A DNA stretch of 64,000 nt, from positions 4,108 to 68,107 of the forward strand of contig JABJOE010000009.1 in assembly GCA_018664485.1 (NCBI GenBank), read 5' to 3'. This stretch comes from Candidatus Uhrbacteria bacterium. Lineage in GTDB: Bacteria > Patescibacteriota > Patescibacteriia > UBA9934. Shown piece by piece: positions 26,652 to 54,971 of this stretch (within the stretch, counting starts at the first letter, position 1; each line of letters opens with the position of its first letter). The notes below the pieces were generated by a model that saw nothing but the letters and a program-made list of their open reading frames with translations, did not search any database and had not been told where the DNA came from. The position numbers and the translations under genes were made by a program.

Positions 26652-27353
26652 GTGACGAGGAATACGGAAATGTGTACACCAGACCAAGAGGAGGGACCTG
26701 GCCATGGCCGTCATGCTCCAAAGGCCGCAGGAGTAGTTCTTGTTCGGTGCGGAGACTATCGCACGAATGGACCGCATAGTGCGTTCGCTATAAACGAACT
26801 GCTCAAAAATGCAGTTGATGCATTTACGGTCAATCAGACTGGAAGGTCACATACTGCTGGAAGAATCAAACATGACCTACAGGTCATCCCTGGTCCAGCG
26901 CATGTCCTTGCAACTCGCTTTGGCATTCGACGCTACCTGCGTGCACAGCTATGGCTACATGCACAGATGCTGGGACTCCACAGCGTCGGCGATGGGCGGT
27001 GGATCGAAAAGCTGACGTCCTTGTGGCAGATCAAGGCCTACGTCGAGCTTCACGGCCAAGAGACAATAGTACTCGCTACCCACTGGGACTGCGGACGTGA
27101 GGGTGAACACGGACAGGATATGGACACCCACATTGCACATGCCTGGGGCAGCCTGCAAACACTCCGCCGAGCGCTTCCAGAACACAACCTCGCGCTGATG
27201 ATGCTGCACGTTGACGAAGGAAAGATCGTACTTGAAGAAAGTCGTGTATACACTTTCGTACAGGTCGCAGCGTTGATGGACAGAGTACACAGTCGCCACG
27301 CAACAGCGCAACGTCCCAAGACCGAGCAAAGCCGCGCAGAAGCTGCCAAGTAG
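26652..27353 (+). CDS. beta-carbonic-anhydrase-like zinc-binding protein, G+C-rich paralog (CxDxR ... HxxCG); exact start uncertain
   Basis: VLVRCGDYR and IVLATHWDCG align with ALVRCMDFR and IVLMNHTDCG of the next gene. G+C visibly higher than flanks. Long antisense ORFs here are treated as GC artefacts. Confidence 0.4.
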   Translation: MTRNTEMCTPDQEEGPGHGRHAPKAAGVVLVRCGDYRTNGPHSAFAINELLKNAVDAFTVNQTGRSHTAGRIKHDLQVIPGPAHVLATRFGIRRYLRAQLWLHAQMLGLHSVGDGRWIEKLTSLWQIKAYVELHGQETIVLATHWDCGREGEHGQDMDTHIAHAWGSLQTLRRALPEHNLALMMLHVDEGKIVLEESRVYTFVQVAALMDRVHSRHATAQRPKTEQSRAEAAK

Positions 27354-27591: not shown

Positions 27592-28005
27592 ATGTCACAT
27601 ACCTGCTCCGCAGCGCTTGTTCGTTGCATGGATTTCCGACTCGAGTCTGCCATTGAGGAATACATGGCAAATAACAAACTCACAAACGACACAGACGTCA
27701 TATCAATTGCCGGTGCTGCAAAAGATGTAAACGATCAGAGCATGGGTGGAGCAGTCGCAGGTCAGCTCGCACTTTCAAAGAAATTGCACGACATCAACAC
27801 CATAGTTCTAATGAACCACACAGACTGCGGAGGCTACGGTGGACGATCAGCATTTGAAAGTCGAGAAGCCGAATGGCAGAACCATGTAGACGCTCTAAAC
27901 GGAGCAGCGGCTATACTAAAGGCAACATATCCAGACGTCACAATAAAAAAAACAATAGCTGATATTAACGACGACGGATCAATAGAAATCAAAGAAGTGG
28001 CTTAA
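27592..28005 (+). CDS. beta-carbonic-anhydrase-like zinc-binding protein (short, 137 aa)
   Basis: RCMDFR (CxDxR), VISIAGAA, HTDCGG (HxxCG) with beta-CA-like spacing. Identification tentative. Confidence 0.45.
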   Translation: MSHTCSAALVRCMDFRLESAIEEYMANNKLTNDTDVISIAGAAKDVNDQSMGGAVAGQLALSKKLHDINTIVLMNHTDCGGYGGRSAFESREAEWQNHVDALNGAAAILKATYPDVTIKKTIADINDDGSIEIKEVA

Positions 28006-34407: not shown

Positions 34408-36330
34408 ATGGTTCTGAAGTCTAACAACCCATTCCCGGAGCTCGACGGAAGCGAGACTCCTTTTGCGGTTGATAGACGTGATGATATTTTCTTTGAAGAA
34501 GTAATGGCAGAATACCCAGAAGCATCAACACAGTCAGCTCGGTCATTCGTAGGCTCTGTAATTGATGCAAAACGATTTAAAATAGCGATGGGAATACTCA
34601 TCGCTCTAGCCTTTATGTTCCTTGGTAAAACCGGGATGATGCAAATAGTGCACGGGGAAGAATACCGTACTCTAGCTGAAGAAAATCGAATCTACCGGCA
34701 AGTTCTCCCTACAAAGCGTGGTGTTATATATGATCGAAATGGTGTCATTCTTGCTGAAAATATTCCAACTTTCCAAATTATCACAGCACTCTCAGCACTT
34801 CCTGCAGATGCATATGAACGTCAGCAGGCCTTAGGAGCGCTTGCAACGCTGATCGAGGAAGATCAACGTGAATGGATGGTAGCTCTCGACAGTATCACCG
34901 ATGAAGATGAACCAATTCTCCTTGCAAAAGACGTCGGGTACGAAATGGCAATGTATCTTGCAACACATAAAGAGAACTTTCCATGGATGCAGCTTGAAAT
35001 CGGATCCAAACGTGAATACATCACAGACGGTATTCCATCTCTGTCACATATTATTGGATACACAGGAATCATCAACGAAGACGAGTACGACGTAATCTCG
35101 CACGATGAATACCGACAATTCGACCATATAGGTAAGCTTGGCCTTGAATCTGAATATGAAACGATGTTACGCGGAACATATGGTGAGTCTTATCTAGAAG
35201 TTGATGCCTTCGGTGGAATCGAGCGCATTATTTCAAAAGAGGATCCAGTTGATGGGGAAGCGCTTCACCTTACGATTGACGCAGCACTTCAGGCCCAGAT
35301 TGAGCAAGTTCTCAAAGCAAGGCTCGACGGTACAGTAGCGTCACGAGCATCAGTCGTTGTAATGGATCCAAACAACGGTGACATTTTGTCTCTTGTATCG
35401 TGGCCAGCATTCGACTCAAATGAATTTACAGACGGAATTAATGAGGAAACTTATGAGTCATATATAACCGATGAAGATCGACCGCTGTTTTCGCGTGCAA
35501 CAGCTGGAGATTATCCATCTGGATCAACTATAAAAATGGCACATGCAGCTGCCGCACTCATGGAGGGAGTTATAAACGACTCAACATCATTTATATCGAC
35601 CGGTGGAATTAGTATTGGCATATGGTTCTTTCCAGACTGGCGAGCTGGCGGTCACGGAGTTACAAATATCTACCATGCCATTGCAGATTCTGTTAATACA
35701 TTCTTCTACATGATCGGTGGAGGTGATGAAACATTCAAAGGGTTAGGGATCGATAAAATGATGGAGTACGATGCGAGGATGGGATTCGGCTCCAAAACAG
35801 GAATCGACCTTCCAACAGAGGCAGACGGATTCTTGCCGTCACGTGAATGGAAATGGGAAGCGAAGGGTGAGCAGTGGTATATCGGTGACACATACCACGT
35901 AGCAATCGGGCAGGGTGACTTTTTAGCAACGCCACTACAGGTAAACGGAGCGACAGCAATGTTTGCAAACGGTGGGGAATTAGTGCGCCCGCGACTATGG
36001 GAAGATCGTGAAATAGAAAAAGAACGTGCTGTCGGGCTCGATATAGCTATAATCATTCAAAATGCAATGCGGCAAACCGTAACAGAGGGATCGGCGCAAA
36101 TGCTTGGATCAGCCCCGGTAACTGTCGCCGGAAAAACTGGTACGGCTCAATGGTCTTCCATTAACCCGCCACATTCTTGGTTCACCGGCTTTGCACCTTT
36201 TGATGAACCGGAACTTGCGATCACTGTGCTTATTGAGGAAGGAGGAGACGACTATTTAGCAGTTCCAATTACGTACGATATTTTAAACTGGTACTTCGCA
36301 GACCGTTTCCCAGATACTACAGATCAATAG
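34408..36330 (+). CDS. mrdA: penicillin-binding protein 2 (class B transpeptidase)
   Basis: SGSTIK (SxxK), SxN-like motif and KTGTAQ (KTG) motifs. N-terminal TM and dimerisation domain. Confidence 0.85.
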   Translation: MVLKSNNPFPELDGSETPFAVDRRDDIFFEEVMAEYPEASTQSARSFVGSVIDAKRFKIAMGILIALAFMFLGKTGMMQIVHGEEYRTLAEENRIYRQVLPTKRGVIYDRNGVILAENIPTFQIITALSALPADAYERQQALGALATLIEEDQREWMVALDSITDEDEPILLAKDVGYEMAMYLATHKENFPWMQLEIGSKREYITDGIPSLSHIIGYTGIINEDEYDVISHDEYRQFDHIGKLGLESEYETMLRGTYGESYLEVDAFGGIERIISKEDPVDGEALHLTIDAALQAQIEQVLKARLDGTVASRASVVVMDPNNGDILSLVSWPAFDSNEFTDGINEETYESYITDEDRPLFSRATAGDYPSGSTIKMAHAAAALMEGVINDSTSFISTGGISIGIWFFPDWRAGGHGVTNIYHAIADSVNTFFYMIGGGDETFKGLGIDKMMEYDARMGFGSKTGIDLPTEADGFLPSREWKWEAKGEQWYIGDTYHVAIGQGDFLATPLQVNGATAMFANGGELVRPRLWEDREIEKERAVGLDIAIIIQNAMRQTVTEGSAQMLGSAPVTVAGKTGTAQWSSINPPHSWFTGFAPFDEPELAITVLIEEGGDDYLAVPITYDILNWYFADRFPDTTDQ

Positions 36331-36466
36331 AATACTGTTGACCATAACGTTGACATAATGCAAATACTGCAGTATGCTACTTCTATTGTCGCAGAAAAGC
36401 GGGAATAATTTTTTCTGCAAAAATTTAAGCTTTATTGGCTGAAATAGCCAAAATTTACGACTTACT

Positions 36467-36928
36467 ATGAACGACCTTCAGTATATCTCTCCACAAGGAC
36501 TCGCCGACTTAAAAGTAGAAGTTCAAGAGAGAAAGACAAAAACTCGACGAGAAATCGCTGATAAGATTGGTCAGGCAAAAGAGCTTGGTGATCTTTCAGA
36601 GAATTTTGAATATCACGACGCAAAGCAATTGCAGGCTGATAACGAATCACGCATTATTGTTATTGAAAATCTTTTACGCAACGTTGTCGTTGTTGAAAAG
36701 AAAACTGGTGCAACGTGCGTTGCTATCGGAACAGGTTTTACAGTTTCAATTGGTGACGCCGAAAAAACATTTGAAATTGTTGGTGCGTCCGAAGCTGATC
36801 CACTAAGTGGAAAGATCAGTAATGAATCACCACTTGGAAACAAATTCCTTGGATCATGTATTGGAGACAAGGTAGAAATGGAAACTCCCGGTGGAGTTAT
36901 GACCTACGAGGTAAAAGCAATTGACTAA
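36467..36928 (+). CDS. greA: transcription elongation factor GreA
   Basis: N-terminal coiled coil with GDLSENFEYHDAK. C-terminal FKBP-like domain. Confidence 0.85.
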   Translation: MNDLQYISPQGLADLKVEVQERKTKTRREIADKIGQAKELGDLSENFEYHDAKQLQADNESRIIVIENLLRNVVVVEKKTGATCVAIGTGFTVSIGDAEKTFEIVGASEADPLSGKISNESPLGNKFLGSCIGDKVEMETPGGVMTYEVKAID

Positions 36929-36952
36929 GTTTTCTACATTTTAAAAGCACAT

Positions 36953-36985
36953 CACCCCCGACCTGGCGTTTTCCAGGCGGGGGTG
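36953..36985. terminator. GC-rich hairpin terminator (cacccccgacctggcg tttt ccaggcgggggtg), bidirectional for greA (+) and the minus-strand islet gene
   Basis: Perfect long inverted repeat. On the minus strand it is followed by TGCTTTTAAAA. Confidence 0.65.
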
Positions 36986-37001
36986 TTGACGTTTGTAGTC
37001 C

Positions 37002-37667
37002 TCAGCTCTCACTGGGCTTGTAAGGGATGAACGATTCGCCGGTAATAGCAGGTGCTACTCCCGATGGCACGCTGAACGTATATCTAAATACATCACCAGG
37101 TTTGCAGATCGCGGGCGCTGCGCCCTTGAATGGAAAACCAATGAACGGTGCCATACCGACTCCAATTACGTGGCGGTCGCCCGTGGGAAAATCTCTAGAC
37201 AGAACTTTGAATTTGTATTTTCCTACAGGACCAAGGAGTACATCATGCATCCAGACAAGTAGTTGGAGTTGGTAGAATGTAGAATTTCGCCACACCTTCC
37301 CCCAAACCTGCATTCCCGGATCCTGCATAGATGCAACAGCCTTCATTGCCTCATCGAAACTCTTGCGCCCGCTCGGCCACCACGACTCATGGTGGTATCC
37401 AAGTGCTGCAACTTCGCGTGGAACAACCCTCACGCCAAGCTCATCATTCGCCAGCTCTGCAAGTAGACCAGTAGCATTGAGAGCAGACTCATCATGAGTC
37501 ACGAAGAGCCGACCGTCCCATGGGTCTCCACTCACTTTGATCAGAGGAAGTACTTCATTTAGAGACGCATCGCGCACCGCGCTTGCGCTCAAGCCAGCGT
37601 CGTTATCCATGCCGCAGCAAATCAGATGAAAGTTGACTTCCAGGCGCCTCTCATTCGGATCAATCAT
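37002..37667 (-). CDS. hypothetical protein, tandem paralog A (unknown family; FHLIxC, GDxWDGRL, HHVIGxG, C-terminal PYKPSES)
   Basis: 221 aa, G+C-rich. GGGAGGT SD 7 nt before the ATG. About 35-40% identical to the upstream paralog. Confidence 0.5.
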   Translation of the reverse strand: MIDPNERRLEVNFHLICCGMDNDAGLSASAVRDASLNEVLPLIKVSGDPWDGRLFVTHDESALNATGLLAELANDELGVRVVPREVAALGYHHESWWPSGRKSFDEAMKAVASMQDPGMQVWGKVWRNSTFYQLQLLVWMHDVLLGPVGKYKFKVLSRDFPTGDRHVIGVGMAPFIGFPFKGAAPAICKPGDVFRYTFSVPSGVAPAITGESFIPYKPSES

Positions 37668-37746
37668 TTAGACCTCCCGGCCTTGCTATGGGGAATCTAA
37701 ACTTACCTAATACACGCTTCTATCGTCAAATCACTTTAACGCACAT

Positions 37747-37777
37747 CACCCCCGACCTGGCGTTCCAGGCGGGGGTG
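37747..37777 (-). terminator. duplicated copy of the GC-rich hairpin terminator, 3' of paralog B
   Basis: Near-identical at nucleotide level to 36953-36985, including the last 6 codons of the preceding gene. Confidence 0.6.
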
Positions 37778-37794
37778 TTTGACGTTTGCAGGCC

Positions 37795-38439
37795 TCAGCT
37801 CTCACTGGGCACGTAGGGCGTGAATGTGCAGCTAACCAGTTTTGGCGGACCTTCTTTTGGTACATGGAAGAAGTAGCTGAACATAGATCCAGGCTCAACA
37901 ATGGCGGGCACATCAGAAGGGCTGCCATACGGCATGCCAATCATAGGGGAGTGGCCAAGACCAATCACATGATGATTTCTTGTACGATCAGCGAACCGCA
38001 TACCAACCATCACGGAATGCATCCAGGTCAAGACACGATGTCGGTAGAAACTGGCAGCCATCCACGACTGATGCCATGCCATAAAGGACTGTGGCGTTAC
38101 CATGAATTCTCTGACAAGCCCAATGTAGTCAGGGCCAGCATTACCATCCCAAATTGTGGGGTGGTAAAATCCGATCGCTCCAGTGGAGACCTGCTCACAG
38201 AACTGATCACGATCTCCGTCAACAACTGCCGCAATACTATCCGCAGCAGCGACAGGTGAACTGTCAACGTTCACATGGAGACGTCCATCCCATGCATCTC
38301 CAGGCCTCCTTATCAGAGGAAGAATCTTATCGCTGAACATGCAGCTCGCCCTAAGGGCGCCATTTTCACCACCAGGGCCCTCCGCACAAACAATGAGGTG
38401 AAAAGAAACCTTCAGGCACCCGCCTTTCTTACAAGCCAT
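37795..38439 (-). CDS. hypothetical protein, tandem paralog B (same unknown family; C-terminal PYVPSES)
   Basis: Start taken at MACKKGG (ATG at 38437-38439) with a GGAGGT SD. This aligns with the start of paralog A. The ORF as listed extends to 38499. Confidence 0.5.
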   Translation of the reverse strand: MACKKGGCLKVSFHLIVCAEGPGGENGALRASCMFSDKILPLIRRPGDAWDGRLHVNVDSSPVAAADSIAAVVDGDRDQFCEQVSTGAIGFYHPTIWDGNAGPDYIGLVREFMVTPQSFMAWHQSWMAASFYRHRVLTWMHSVMVGMRFADRTRNHHVIGLGHSPMIGMPYGSPSDVPAIVEPGSMFSYFFHVPKEGPPKLVSCTFTPYVPSES

Positions 38440-38576
38440 TCTAGACCTCCAGGTTTTGAGAATGGATCTGAATTTACCCAAAAAAACCTTGATTGTCAAG
38501 CAAAACTGGTGTAGACTTTGTCTATCAACCTTACAAGGTTGCAGGTTTTAAGTACTAGGTTTTAGCGCCAATACCT

Positions 38577-38593
38577 AACCCCTAGTACCTGAC
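38577..38593 (+). repeat. 17-mer cctagtacctgacacct, second occurrence of the motif found in the 27464-27590 repeat
   Basis: 1 mismatch to 27504-27520. Lies between the G+C-rich islet and lysS. Confidence 0.5.
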
Positions 38594-38668
38594 ACCTTTT
38601 ATATATTTTGAGTAAGTCTGGCAAAATCCGACCAGAATCCACCTAGGAAAAGTACAATAAAACCAACT

Positions 38669-40174
38669 ATGATTGATGAAGAACGAGTTCGTCGCGATCG
38701 CCTGCAAGCAATCCGCGACACCAAAGTAAATCCATACCCAGCCCAATCTCACCGCACTCATCTCGCAGAAGAGGTGCTGTCAACGTTTGAGGACCTTGAA
38801 GCATCCCAAAATGAGGTTACACTTGCTGGACGTATTCGTGCTCTTCGAAAGCATGGAGGAATTGCTTTTGTTGTTCTTCAAGATGCATCTTCTGAAATTC
38901 AGGTCGTTCTACACAAAGACACGATGGGTGAGGATGCCTACAATACTTTTCACACACAGGCAGACCTAGGTGACTTTTATGAGTTCAGCGGCCCTGTAAT
39001 GGTCACAAAGAAAGGTCAGCAGTCACTCAGTGCTAAAACAACTCGTATTCTCACAAAGGCGCTACTTCCACTTCCTGAAAAATTCCACGGTCTCAACGAC
39101 ATTGAAACTCGATACAGACAACGTTATCTCGACCTTCTTGCAAATCCAGAGGTAATTGCATCTGCAAAATCTCGCGCAAAAATGGTTGCGGCAATGCGTG
39201 GACTTCTAGAACAAGAATCTTTCCTTGAAGTTGAAACTCCAATTTTACAACCAATCCCAGGTGGAGCTAATGCAAAACCTTTCATTACACACCACGAAGC
39301 TCTACACGCAGATTTCTACCTTCGTATCGCACCCGAGCTTTACCTTAAGCGTTTGGTCGTTGGTGGATTTGAAAAAGTATACGAGTTCGCACGATGTTTC
39401 CGTAACGAAGGAATCAGCCCGCAGCACAACCCAGAATTCACACAGATCGAAGCTTATTGGGCTTACGCAACAATTGAGATGCTCATGGATCACCTTGAGC
39501 GACTGCTGCGCGCAGCCTGCAAAGCAGTAACTGGTGGAAAAGAATCTGTAGAACTTGAAGGACACACACTTTCCTTCGTAGATATTCCACGACAAACATT
39601 CCAAAGTATTATTCTAGAACACAGTGGAATCGATTTGGATGAAGTTACAGAAGAGGACGATTTACGAAAAATAATGGACGACAAAGGTATTCAAACTAAA
39701 GGAGTAGTCGGATACGGGGAACTGGTTGACTATCTATATAAACACGGAGCCCGACCGAAAATCATTGGTCCAGTTTTTGTTACCGACTATCCAGCTGCAA
39801 TGAAACCGCTTGCGAAACGTCGCGACAACAATCCTCACTACAGCGCCTCCGCTCAGATGGTTATTCTTGGGATGGAAATGTTCAACTCGTTTAATGAGTT
39901 AAACGATCCAATCGAACAGGAAGATCGTTTCCGTGAGCAAGAAGGTTTGCGAGAGCGGGGAAGTGAAGACGGAATGCGTATTGATGACGACTACGTTACT
40001 GCTCTTAAACACGGAATGCCACCAACTGCCGGATACGGAATTGGAATCGATCGGTTGGCAGCGCTTTTGACACAATCTACAAATATTAAAGAAGTTATTT
40101 TGTTCCCAACTCTAAAACCACGTAGCAACGATGCCGGTGGAGAGTCGGAATCTGAGAGCCCATCTGGGGAATAG
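38669..40174 (+). CDS. lysS: lysyl-tRNA synthetase (class II)
   Basis: N-terminal OB anticodon-binding domain. Class II motifs 1-3 (e.g. FRNEG, GIGIDRL). Confidence 0.9.
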   Translation: MIDEERVRRDRLQAIRDTKVNPYPAQSHRTHLAEEVLSTFEDLEASQNEVTLAGRIRALRKHGGIAFVVLQDASSEIQVVLHKDTMGEDAYNTFHTQADLGDFYEFSGPVMVTKKGQQSLSAKTTRILTKALLPLPEKFHGLNDIETRYRQRYLDLLANPEVIASAKSRAKMVAAMRGLLEQESFLEVETPILQPIPGGANAKPFITHHEALHADFYLRIAPELYLKRLVVGGFEKVYEFARCFRNEGISPQHNPEFTQIEAYWAYATIEMLMDHLERLLRAACKAVTGGKESVELEGHTLSFVDIPRQTFQSIILEHSGIDLDEVTEEDDLRKIMDDKGIQTKGVVGYGELVDYLYKHGARPKIIGPVFVTDYPAAMKPLAKRRDNNPHYSASAQMVILGMEMFNSFNELNDPIEQEDRFREQEGLRERGSEDGMRIDDDYVTALKHGMPPTAGYGIGIDRLAALLTQSTNIKEVILFPTLKPRSNDAGGESESESPSGE

Positions 40175-53697: not shown

Positions 53698-54255
53698 TCA
53701 GTCGTTGTCGATCCGGAGCTCACCATTCCGCTCCTTCCAGTCACCATCATCGATAACCTCGTCTTCCCACATCACCATGGTGGTTTCCGCCACGGCGTTG
53801 TCATCCACGAACAGGCTGGAAGCCGGTCCACCACCAATGGTGATGCTTCCGGTGCATTCTGCGTCAAAATGACTGGGAATGCTCGGAATGTAGACGATCG
53901 CCGAAAGGCCATCGGTGTAGATGTAGGGAGCAGCGGGAACGATGTCGCCATCGCTGTCCTCAACGAGGCAGCTCAGGTTCATCTGTGTGATCTCGTAGTT
54001 CGGATCCGTCATCGCTTCCTCGGCGTAGACGTTCATGATCTCGATCATGAGACCATCCTCCTGTATGGGAGCGCCGACCATGTTGCCGTTGCCGATCTCA
54101 GCGCAGATGTTGATGTTCGTGCCGCCGTTGCCGATCTCGATGAAGTCACCGAGACAGACCTTGGCGCCGAAGCTCGCATCCGACAAGTCGCATCCGCTGA
54201 GGGACAAGAACGAGACGATGGCGGCACCGGACATGAGGATCTTCTGAATGTTCAT
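53698..54255 (-). CDS. hypothetical secreted lipoprotein (G+C-rich islet)
   Basis: Start at MNIQK with an AAGGAGA SD. Signal peptide with LSLSGC lipobox. Gly/Asn-rich. Confidence 0.5.
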   Translation of the reverse strand: MNIQKILMSGAAIVSFLSLSGCDLSDASFGAKVCLGDFIEIGNGGTNINICAEIGNGNMVGAPIQEDGLMIEIMNVYAEEAMTDPNYEITQMNLSCLVEDSDGDIVPAAPYIYTDGLSAIVYIPSIPSHFDAECTGSITIGGGPASSLFVDDNAVAETTMVMWEDEVIDDGDWKERNGELRIDND

Positions 54256-54330
54256 GGGGTCTCCTTGCCTCAAATGAGGACTTAGTTTGGGGTAGGTTTC
54301 AGCGGCGCTGAATCACGTCGGATCTTTCAA

Positions 54331-54479: not shown

Positions 54480-54971
54480 CTAGTCCATCTCGATACCTTC
54501 GTAGATGGCAAAGTAGTCTCGGTCCTCGAGGTCGCACGTCTTGATGTATCCGTGGTATTTCTTGCGGATCTCTTTACACCTTGACCTAGTCACGTCCACC
54601 AAGTGATCGATAACGTCGTCGACGTCATCTTCGAGCTGATCATATCCGCCCGTGCTAGGGACGAAAATCGGCTCAACCGGTCCATTAGGATGATGTCCGT
54701 CAGGAATCTGTATGTAGGCGCCGTCGCGATAGTCGAAGTATTCCCGATCGTATGCGTCGTATCGGTACTCAGAATAGTCCCGATCGTACGTATCATAATC
54801 TACCACGAGATAGAAGCCTCTCTCTTGCTCAAACGCGATACCAATGCCGTATTCCGTGACTCCGCAAGCGGATTCGGACTCGTTCTTGAGTTGAAGTTGG
54901 GAGATATATGCACCTGCGCCTGCGATAATGAGGGCGAGAAGTGCGAGGATATTTGTAATGGTCTTGAGCAT
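54480..54971 (-). CDS. hypothetical secreted protein with a Tyr/Asp/Arg-rich repeat (YDTYDRDYSEYRYDAYDREYFDYRDGAY)
   Basis: Cleavable signal peptide. Low-complexity YD(R)(D/E)Y repeats. G+C-rich. Confidence 0.5.
   Translation of the reverse strand: MLKTITNILALLALIIAGAGAYISQLQLKNESESACGVTEYGIGIAFEQERGFYLVVDYDTYDRDYSEYRYDAYDREYFDYRDGAYIQIPDGHHPNGPVEPIFVPSTGGYDQLEDDVDDVIDHLVDVTRSRCKEIRKKYHGYIKTCDLEDRDYFAIYEGIEMD

What the first reader, a model, noticed from the sequence alone, without database searches (positions are those of the whole stretch)
36950..38520. Tandemly duplicated unknown-family genes with duplicated SD and hairpin terminator, inserted between greA and lysS
Two minus-strand paralogs (221 and about 214 aa) share conserved blocks: FHLIxC near the N-terminus, LPLIxxxGDxWDGRL, W..FY..L.WMH.V, HHVIGxGxxPxIGxP, and a conserved C-terminus FTPY(K/V)PSES. 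Their flanking non-coding DNA is nearly identical at the nucleotide level (tctagacctcc SD context; 31-nt perfect hairpin terminator cacccccgacctggcgttccaggcgggggtg plus the last 6 codons). Non-coding flanks being more conserved than coding sequence suggests recent gene conversion, or that flank plus C-terminal tail is a functional module. The family is not one I can name. The several conserved His, Cys and Asp residues hint at a metal-dependent enzyme. The islet is G+C-rich relative to its surroundings.
Basis: seen in the sequence. Interest (0 to 1): 0.65.

Follow-up and report, generated by a model that had tools for sequence, protein, structure and literature searches.

The report
Duplicated, catalytically degenerate histidine-phosphatase-like genes
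Two neighbouring genes of a Candidatus Uhrbacteria genome that looked like an unknown family are very diverged copies of a histidine-phosphatase (phosphoglycerate-mutase-like) gene that have lost the usual catalytic residues, a lineage-specific curiosity and not a new kind of system.

Summary
Two minus-strand paralogs (221 and 214 aa, 33% identical, E 7e-36) lie between greA and lysS. Each has its own promoter-like site, GGAGG Shine-Dalgarno and G+C-rich hairpin, and the islet is G+C-rich. Two independent metagenome contigs are 100% identical across it, so it is not an assembly artefact.

Both window proteins have lost the catalytic set. RHG is VCA or CCG, both phosphate-binding Arg and the Glu donor are gone, and the second His survives only in A. 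They are probably non-catalytic binders, or use other chemistry.

The islet is lineage-specific: 23 of 30 other species have greA directly beside lysS, and none has a family member. The protein evolves 4-10 times faster than its neighbours, while promoter and hairpin stay conserved. The near-identical 3' 92 nt fits gene conversion.

This is a new variant of a known superfamily, of moderate-to-low interest.

The parts
37795..38439 (-). Paralog A CDS, 214 aa. Histidine-phosphatase fold; RHG position reads VCA; second catalytic His retained (GHSP).
37002..37667 (-). Paralog B CDS, 221 aa. Same fold by homology; RHG position reads CCG; second catalytic His replaced by Met (GMAP).
   Evidence: hhalign of A+B against P0010 gives probability 97%, E 4.5e-11. 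A full-length 221-aa gene call, P0019, exists.
38471..38499 (-). Promoter-like site of A (TTGACA, 17 nt, TAAATT), conserved in the orthologous locus.
   Evidence: 10 of 12 matches. The 5' flank is 74% identical to L001 over 76 nt, although CDS nucleotide identity is 40% and synonymous sites are saturated.
38446..38450 (-). Shine-Dalgarno GGAGG of A, 6 nt before the ATG.
37700..37729 (-). Weaker copy of the promoter-like site before B (TTGACG, 18 nt, TAAGTT).
   Evidence: Sequence and alignments (65% identity to the A flank). It did not pass the scan, so B may depend partly on read-through.
37673..37677 (-). Shine-Dalgarno GGAGG of B, 5 nt before the ATG.
37747..37777 (.). Hairpin copy 2 between A and B: 13 bp, 1-nt bulge, 4-nt loop.
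   Evidence: (z -3.4).
36953..36985 (.). Hairpin copy 1 between B and the convergent greA: same stem, 6-nt loop.
   Evidence: z -5.0. It is conserved in L001 and L003, with 4 of 13 pairs changed on both sides.
36941..37031 (-). 3' tract of B (last ~9 codons, stop, spacer, hairpin), 87% identical to 37735-37824. Probable gene-conversion tract.
37735..37824 (-). 3' tract of A, the partner of 36941-37031.

Best explanation
The islet is a lineage-specific insertion, in opposite orientation, into the otherwise conserved PBP2-greA-lysS-serS block of an Uhrbacteria sublineage. It carries a cytoplasmic protein with the histidine phosphatase (phosphoglycerate-mutase-like, branch 1) fold.

In the sister species the gene is single-copy and keeps the catalytic RHG, Arg and second His. 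In the window's species the whole transcription unit (promoter, SD, CDS, hairpin) was duplicated in tandem long ago. Both copies have since lost the phospho-histidine machinery:
- RHG reads VCA in A and CCG in B.
- Both phosphate-binding Arg and the Glu proton donor are gone.
- The second His is kept only in A.

I infer that they no longer work as canonical phosphatases or mutases. They most likely act as non-catalytic ligand- or protein-binding proteins built on the old active-site cleft (pseudoenzymes), possibly as a pair. The ~92-nt 3' ends, including the hairpin, have been homogenised by gene conversion. The hairpin itself is under selection, probably as a transcript-end or stability element shared with the convergent greA.

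Shown: paralogy, synteny and insertion, fold, loss of catalytic residues, fast protein evolution with conserved regulatory flanks.
Inferred: lack of activity, a binding role, gene conversion, hairpin function.
For: - Paralogy: E 7e-36.
- Family size: an exhaustive HMMER search of 1.84 billion representatives finds only the window pair, P0010 and the fragment P0007 as real relatives.
- Synteny: P0010 lies at the same place and in the same orientation between greA and lysS in L001.
- Family of P0010: it passes Pfam His_Phos_1 (32.2 bits against a cut-off of 21.7) and matches an E. coli GpmA/YtjC/CobC/SixA profile across the RHG and S.L.RA..TA region (probability 77%, E 2e-5).
- Link to the window pair: hhalign of A+B against P0010 gives probability 97%, E 4.5e-11 over 178 columns.
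- Catalytic positions were mapped.
- Rate: neighbouring proteins are 68-86% identical between the window and L001, against 24-26% for this protein (dN ~0.99 against 0.10-0.25).
- Conserved flanks: the promoter/5'UTR is 74% identical and the hairpin is kept with compensatory changes.
- Insertion: 23 of 30 other species have greA next to lysS and none has a family member.
- Still coding: intact ORFs, and A-B dN of 0.68 is far below the saturated dS.
- Precedent: histidine-phosphatase-fold proteins without the catalytic His act as ligand binders after gene duplication (PMC10728186).
Against: - The window proteins give no Pfam or NCBIfam hit. Their profile does not match the E. coli His_Phos profile.
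- The AF2 model is only moderately confident: pLDDT 58, and one of five models above 43. Its 4-row alignment contains P0010, which may bias it towards the fold.
- The N-terminal 30 residues, which hold the RHG-equivalent position, lie outside the statistically significant local alignments. That mapping rests on global alignment (an ungapped match of LEVNFHLICCG to LQVVLWLMRHG) and on the predicted strand 9-17.
- Loss of activity is inferred only. The invariant Cys at the His position could be a replacement nucleophile.
- dS is saturated, so dN/dS is not reliable.
Confidence: 0.7

Rival explanations
1. The paralogs are active enzymes with a re-engineered site. The invariant Cys18, standing where the nucleophilic His should be, together with conserved His and Asp residues, performs thiol-based catalysis (phosphatase or other hydrolase/transferase) on the 2H-phosphatase scaffold.
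For: Cys is the only residue kept at the RHG position in both copies despite 33% overall identity. Several His, Asp and Trp residues are invariant between A and B. The ORFs are under purifying selection.
Against: Both phosphate-binding Arg and the Glu donor are missing, and the second His differs between A and B. Only two sequences carry the Cys, so its invariance is weak evidence. Two literature searches turned up no such variant of this superfamily, though neither asked specifically about a Cys substitution.
Confidence: 0.12
2. The pair are decaying relics of a once-active acquired phosphatase gene, drifting under relaxed selection and without present function.
For: The catalytic residues are lost. 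Protein divergence is 4-10 times that of neighbouring genes. The family is tiny and patchy. A truncated copy exists in L003.
Against: Synonymous sites are saturated, yet both ORFs stay intact over more than 210 codons and share blocks that give E 7e-36. The SD and promoter are conserved across species. The sequence is identical in three or more independent samples.
Confidence: 0.08
3. The unit is a mobile or exchangeable cassette. Its conserved flanks (the hairpin, and in L001 and L003 a further 34-nt element) are recombination sites. Divergent alleles are swapped in from a pool, which would explain flanks that are more conserved than the CDS.
For: The 3' flank is more conserved than the coding sequence in three lineages. 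L001 and L003 share 34 of 34 nt while their proteins are 29% identical. L003 shows the gene in a different neighbourhood. The composition is G+C-rich in all three hosts.
Against: No relative was found in phage, plasmid or viral collections. By inspection the hairpin has no attC-like core sites, and each unit has its own promoter. L003 is an 859-nt contig at 1x coverage and may be chimeric. No intermediate alleles appear among 15 billion proteins. Whether a recombinase lies nearby was not tested.
Confidence: 0.07
4. The G+C-rich islet is not protein-coding but a pair of structured RNAs.
For: It is G+C-rich relative to a lower-GC genome and has conserved hairpins.
Against: Rfam gives no match at E<=1. 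Conservation is at the amino-acid level (33% aa against ~49% nt). Both units have an SD and ATG, and the predicted fold matches a known protein superfamily.
Confidence: 0.01

Closest known systems
Histidine phosphatase superfamily, branch 1 (Pfam PF00300 His_Phos_1: dPGM, SixA, CobC, TIGAR, PGAM5, PhoE)
   Same: Predicted alpha/beta/alpha fold with the same strand and helix order. It is homologous, through the syntenic ortholog P0010, to proteins with RHG, LSxxG, S.L.RA..TA and the second His. The size (~215 aa) and cytoplasmic location also fit.
   Different: No direct profile match. The nucleophilic His is replaced by Cys, both Arg and the Glu are lost, and the second His is lost in B. The helix after the second-His strand is replaced by a Pro/Gly-rich HHVIGxGxxPxIGxP segment, and there are family-specific Trp-rich helices.
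Flea salivary acid-phosphatase-like pseudoenzymes XcAP-1 to -3 (PDB 8gdl; PMC10728186)
   Same: They have the histidine-phosphatase fold with the catalytic His residues substituted, arose by gene duplication, lack phosphatase activity and bind small ligands near the former active site. 8gdl is among the structural hits.
   Different: They are branch 2 (acid phosphatase), secreted, eukaryotic and ~350 aa, with no detectable sequence relation. A binding function for the window proteins is only an analogy.
P0010, uncharacterised 229-aa protein of a sister Uhrbacteria species (ENA ERZ930061 k127_38784; CAYFME010000007.1)
   Same: Orthologous position, orientation, promoter/SD and 3' hairpin. It aligns along its full length and is also G+C-rich relative to its genome (0.65 against 0.51).
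   Different: It is single-copy, keeps the catalytic residues, and is only 24-26% identical.
Intrinsic (rho-independent) terminator hairpins between convergent genes
   Same: A G+C-rich 13-bp stem-loop directly after the stop codons, lying between convergent genes and conserved with compensatory changes.
   Different: No U-run follows directly on either strand, and the consensus scan finds none. Termination has not been shown.

Membership tests
Histidine phosphatase superfamily (2H-phosphatase), branch 1 / PF00300 | Three-layer alpha/beta/alpha fold with a mixed six-stranded sheet (PMC5501728) | tested here: met
Histidine phosphatase superfamily (2H-phosphatase), branch 1 / PF00300 | Sequence-profile match to PF00300 above the gathering score | tested here: not met
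   Neither window protein hits PF00300 at E<=1. hhalign against an E. coli GpmA/YtjC/CobC/SixA profile is not significant. The ortholog P0010 does meet this feature (32.2 bits against 21.7).
Histidine phosphatase superfamily (2H-phosphatase), branch 1 / PF00300 | RHG motif with the nucleophilic His at the end of strand 1 | tested here: not met
   The position reads VCA in A and CCG in B, directly after predicted strand 9-17. P0010 has RHG.
Histidine phosphatase superfamily (2H-phosphatase), branch 1 / PF00300 | Second catalytic His after strand 4 (the VsHg position) | tested here: inconclusive
   A keeps it (GLGHSP) and B has Met (GVGMAP). P0010 and P0007 keep it.
Histidine phosphatase superfamily (2H-phosphatase), branch 1 / PF00300 | Two phosphate-binding Arg (the R of RHG and the R of S.L.RA..TA) and an acidic proton donor | tested here: not met
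   No Arg stands at either position under either alignment. The ELN Glu of P0010 aligns to Gly in both paralogs.
Histidine phosphatase superfamily (2H-phosphatase), branch 1 / PF00300 | Phosphatase or mutase activity through a phospho-histidine intermediate | not testable with these tools
   This needs recombinant protein and assays.
Intrinsic terminator | G+C-rich stem-loop followed at once by a U-run | tested here: not met
   The stem is present and stable. The scan finds no terminator-like site in 36300-38800. After copy 1 a UUUU run starts about 8 nt past the stem; copy 2 has none.

The most novel reading that the evidence does not exclude
The pair is not inert. One possibility is a thiol-based neo-enzyme on the 2H-phosphatase scaffold, with Cys replacing the nucleophilic His. 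Another is a rapidly evolving interaction factor of an episymbiotic CPR bacterium, with sequence turnover driven by conflict while its promoter and 3' hairpin are held constant. That would explain regulatory flanks that outlast the coding sequence in three lineages.
Probability: 0.12. Interest if true: 0.6.

Novelty: new variant of a known kind. Interest (0 to 1): 0.33.

Why it matters
The finding turns two 'hypothetical proteins' of a Candidate Phyla Radiation genome into a datable case of an acquired enzyme gene. After acquisition the gene was duplicated, stripped of its catalytic residues, and allowed to diverge 4-10 times faster than its neighbours, while its expression signals were preserved. 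Such pseudoenzyme births are well documented in eukaryotes but rarely traced in bacteria, and here the ancestral-like state survives in a sister species. The practical value is modest. The NCBI start sites (202 and 181 aa) are too short and should be corrected. The family, four sequences among 15 billion proteins, is a small and tractable test of whether the histidine-phosphatase cleft can be repurposed.

Tried and rejected
- Pfam, NCBIfam, PHROGs and PADLOC on both proteins gave nothing meaningful.
- PDB sequence searches with B, with the 4-sequence profile and with P0010 gave nothing significant.
- The word-indexed homolog searches returned only self and, with the profile, P0010 and P0007.
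- Giant DUF11/DUF7507/DUF7927 repeat proteins hit the C-terminal 45 residues at E down to 8.5e-20. I rejected these: every single stretch scores 8.4 bits or less, and the E-value is only the sum over up to 36 repeats.
- The first AF2 run, on the 2-sequence alignment, was useless (pLDDT 33).
- hhalign of the window profile against an E. coli histidine-phosphatase profile was not significant, although the control with P0010 worked.
- Rfam gave no match.
- Phage, plasmid and viral collections hold no relatives.
With A+B it found only identical copies of the window.
- The afdb50 fold library was unavailable.
- I considered an integron-cassette/attC reading and dropped it. By inspection the hairpin has no RYYYAAC / GTTRRRY cores, and each unit has its own promoter.
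- dN/dS analysis is limited because synonymous sites are saturated in every comparison.

Full report
**What is there.** The minus strand carries two ORFs, B (37002-37667, 221 aa) and A (37795-38439, 214 aa from the ATG that follows GGAGGTCTAGA).
- They are clear paralogs: 33% identity over the full length, E 7e-36.
- They are the only minus-strand genes in a run of plus-strand genes from about 19.5 kb to 44 kb.
- Each copy has a GGAGG 5-6 nt before its ATG and a promoter-like site upstream. For A this is TTGACA-17-TAAATT at 38499-38471. For B it is a weaker TTGACG-18-TAAGTT at 37729-37700.
- Each copy is followed by a G+C-rich hairpin of 13 bp with one bulged base. The hairpin is not perfect, the two copies differ by 2 nt in the loop, and no U-run follows, so the consensus scan reports no terminator.
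- The last ~9 codons, the stop, the spacer and the hairpin are 87% identical over 92 nt between the copies. The rest of the unit is 40-60% identical.
- G+C is 0.518 in both genes against 0.448 for the window. GC3 is 0.50 against 0.30-0.41 in the neighbours.
- Two JGI metagenome contigs are 100% identical to window 35943-37865 and 36670-39104. The second spans the whole islet, so the arrangement is not an assembly artefact.

**Source and gene models.** The proteins are MBT4857339.1 and MBT4857340.1 of a Candidatus Uhrbacteria MAG, annotated as 202 and 181 aa. The longer starts are better. The extra N-terminal residues are conserved between the paralogs and form strand 1 of the predicted fold. 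Other pipelines and 214 aa (P0019 and P0020).

**Family.** Direct searches name nothing.
- Pfam, NCBIfam, PHROGs, PADLOC and PDB sequences give no hit.
- An exhaustive HMMER search with the A+B profile over 1.84 billion representatives gave 18 hits.
- Fourteen of them are giant DUF11/DUF7507/DUF7927 repeat proteins (Pfam-checked on three). In those examined, no single stretch exceeds 8.4 bits, so they are summation artefacts.
- The real relatives are P0010 (229 aa) and P0007 (151 aa, a C-terminal fragment on an 859-nt contig).
- P0010 passes Pfam His_Phos_1 at 32.2 bits against a gathering score of 21.7. It carries RHG, PLSDDG (the L[S/T]xxG motif described in PMC5501728), SGLVRARQSA and a late His.
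- P0010 matches a profile I built from E. coli GpmA, YtjC, CobC and SixA with 77% probability, E 2e-5.
- The A+B profile aligns to P0010 over 178 columns with 97% probability, E 4.5e-11.
- The A+B profile does not match the E. coli profile directly. The link to the superfamily is therefore transitive at the sequence level.

**Fold.** With four sequences, AlphaFold gave a usable model of A: pLDDT 58, pTM 0.64, and core blocks at 70-79.
- Foldseek agrees, with a best E of 2.7e-4.
- One caveat applies: the input alignment contains P0010, which may bias the model towards this fold.

**Active site.** In alignments anchored on P0010 and the E. coli enzymes, the catalytic positions read as follows.
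- RHG is VCA in A and CCG in B.
- The Arg of S.L.RA..TA is absent under either alignment.
- The Glu of ELN aligns to Gly.
- The second His is kept in A (GLGHSP) and is Met in B (GVGMAP).

The two His and two Arg are the signature of the 2H-phosphatase site (PMC5501728), so canonical catalysis is very unlikely. The only residue kept at the nucleophile position in both copies is Cys. The RHG mapping lies outside the significant local alignments. It rests on the ungapped match of LEVNFHLICCG to LQVVLWLMRHG and on predicted strand 9-17.

**History.** L001, a 133-kb contig of a sister species that is also the GTDB representative L004, has the same gene order: mreB-mreC-PBP2-greA-[P0010, opposite strand]-lysS-CTP transferase-serS.
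- Neighbouring proteins are 68-86% identical to the window's. P0010 is 24-26% identical to A and B, with dN about 0.99 against 0.10-0.25 for the neighbours.
- Third-codon-position identity in the neighbours is 0.37-0.45, so neutral sites are saturated.
- Against that background, the 76 nt upstream of A are 74% identical to L001. The hairpin is kept in the window (twice), in L001 and in L003, with 4 of 13 pairs changed on both sides. The expression signals are therefore under purifying selection while the protein changes fast.
- Among 30 other species-representative loci found through GreA, 23 have lysS 19-208 nt after greA. One (L007) has an unrelated 148-aa ORF there, and none has a family member. 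The gene was therefore inserted in the common ancestor of the two sister species.
- The duplication is old: A-B dN is 0.68 and dS is saturated.
- The 3' tract is nearly identical between the copies, yet its spacer is not conserved in L001. Gene conversion is the best explanation.
- The shared PSES tail aligns to untranslated flank in L001 and L003.
- No relatives occur in phage, plasmid or viral collections. The window holds no other histidine phosphatase gene.

**Mechanism, as far as it can be argued.** The islet makes one or two small cytoplasmic proteins with a histidine-phosphatase fold and a dismantled catalytic centre. By analogy with the flea acid-phosphatase-like proteins, I think the most likely role is non-catalytic binding in the former cleft. 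Those proteins lost the catalytic His residues after duplication, lack activity and bind amines and lipids near the old site (PMC10728186).

The rivals are thiol-based chemistry at Cys18, decay without function, and an exchangeable cassette. The last is suggested by flanks that are more conserved than the CDS, including 34 identical nt shared by L001 and L003, whose proteins are 29% identical. None of these rivals is excluded, and each has a stated test.

**Verdict.** The family is a new, tiny and catalytically degenerate offshoot of a well-known superfamily: a new variant of a known kind, of moderate-to-low interest.

Noticed in passing
window 26652-27353 (+) and 27592-28005 (+): A second G+C-rich ORF (233 aa, GC 0.547) lies beside a normal-GC gene that matches Pfam Pro_CA_2, a putative carbonic anhydrase (E 5.7e-14). 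The G+C-rich ORF is a weak relative of it (Pfam E 0.0018; BLASTP E 1e-4; shared RC.D.R and H.DCG motifs). This is the same pattern of a diverged, G+C-rich duplicate.
   Followed up: partly
window 53698-54273 (-) and 54480-54971 (-): This is the most G+C-rich stretch of the window (0.557). It holds two minus-strand ORFans with GC3 of 0.76 and 0.60 and no Pfam match. The first has a lipoprotein-like N-terminus. They are probably acquired genes.
   Followed up: partly
window 38507-38612 (+), between paralog A and lysS: Three hairpins lie on the lysS strand. The last has 23-nt arms (38543-38597) and is followed by UUUUAUAUAUUUU, so it resembles a terminator or attenuator upstream of lysS. About 140 nt of this spacer have no counterpart in L001, and Rfam gives no match.
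   Followed up: partly
L003 1-859: This is an 859-nt contig at 1x coverage. It holds only the C-terminal ~110 codons of the family (G+C 0.65-0.73). These lie between an MTAP-like fragment (minus strand, 1-150, G+C 0.36) and the C-terminus of a PEP-utilising enzyme (minus strand, 652-859). Its 3' flank shares 34 identical nt and the hairpin with L001. It is either a relocated, truncated copy or a chimeric contig.
   Followed up: partly
L007 4965-5411: Another Uhrbacteria-like genome has an unrelated 148-aa ORF with a hydrophobic N-terminus at the same greA-lysS junction. The junction may accept insertions repeatedly.
   Followed up: no
window 37002-37667 and 37795-38439: The NCBI gene models (MBT4857339.1, 202 aa; MBT4857340.1, 181 aa) start too far downstream. 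They cut off the conserved first strand and miss the SD-linked ATGs.
   Followed up: yes
L004, L007, L012, L015, L017, L019 and others: Several GTDB records with the Uhrbacteria-type PBP2-greA-lysS-serS block are titled 'uncultured Gammaproteobacteria'. This is evidently a placeholder or a mislabel.
   Followed up: no
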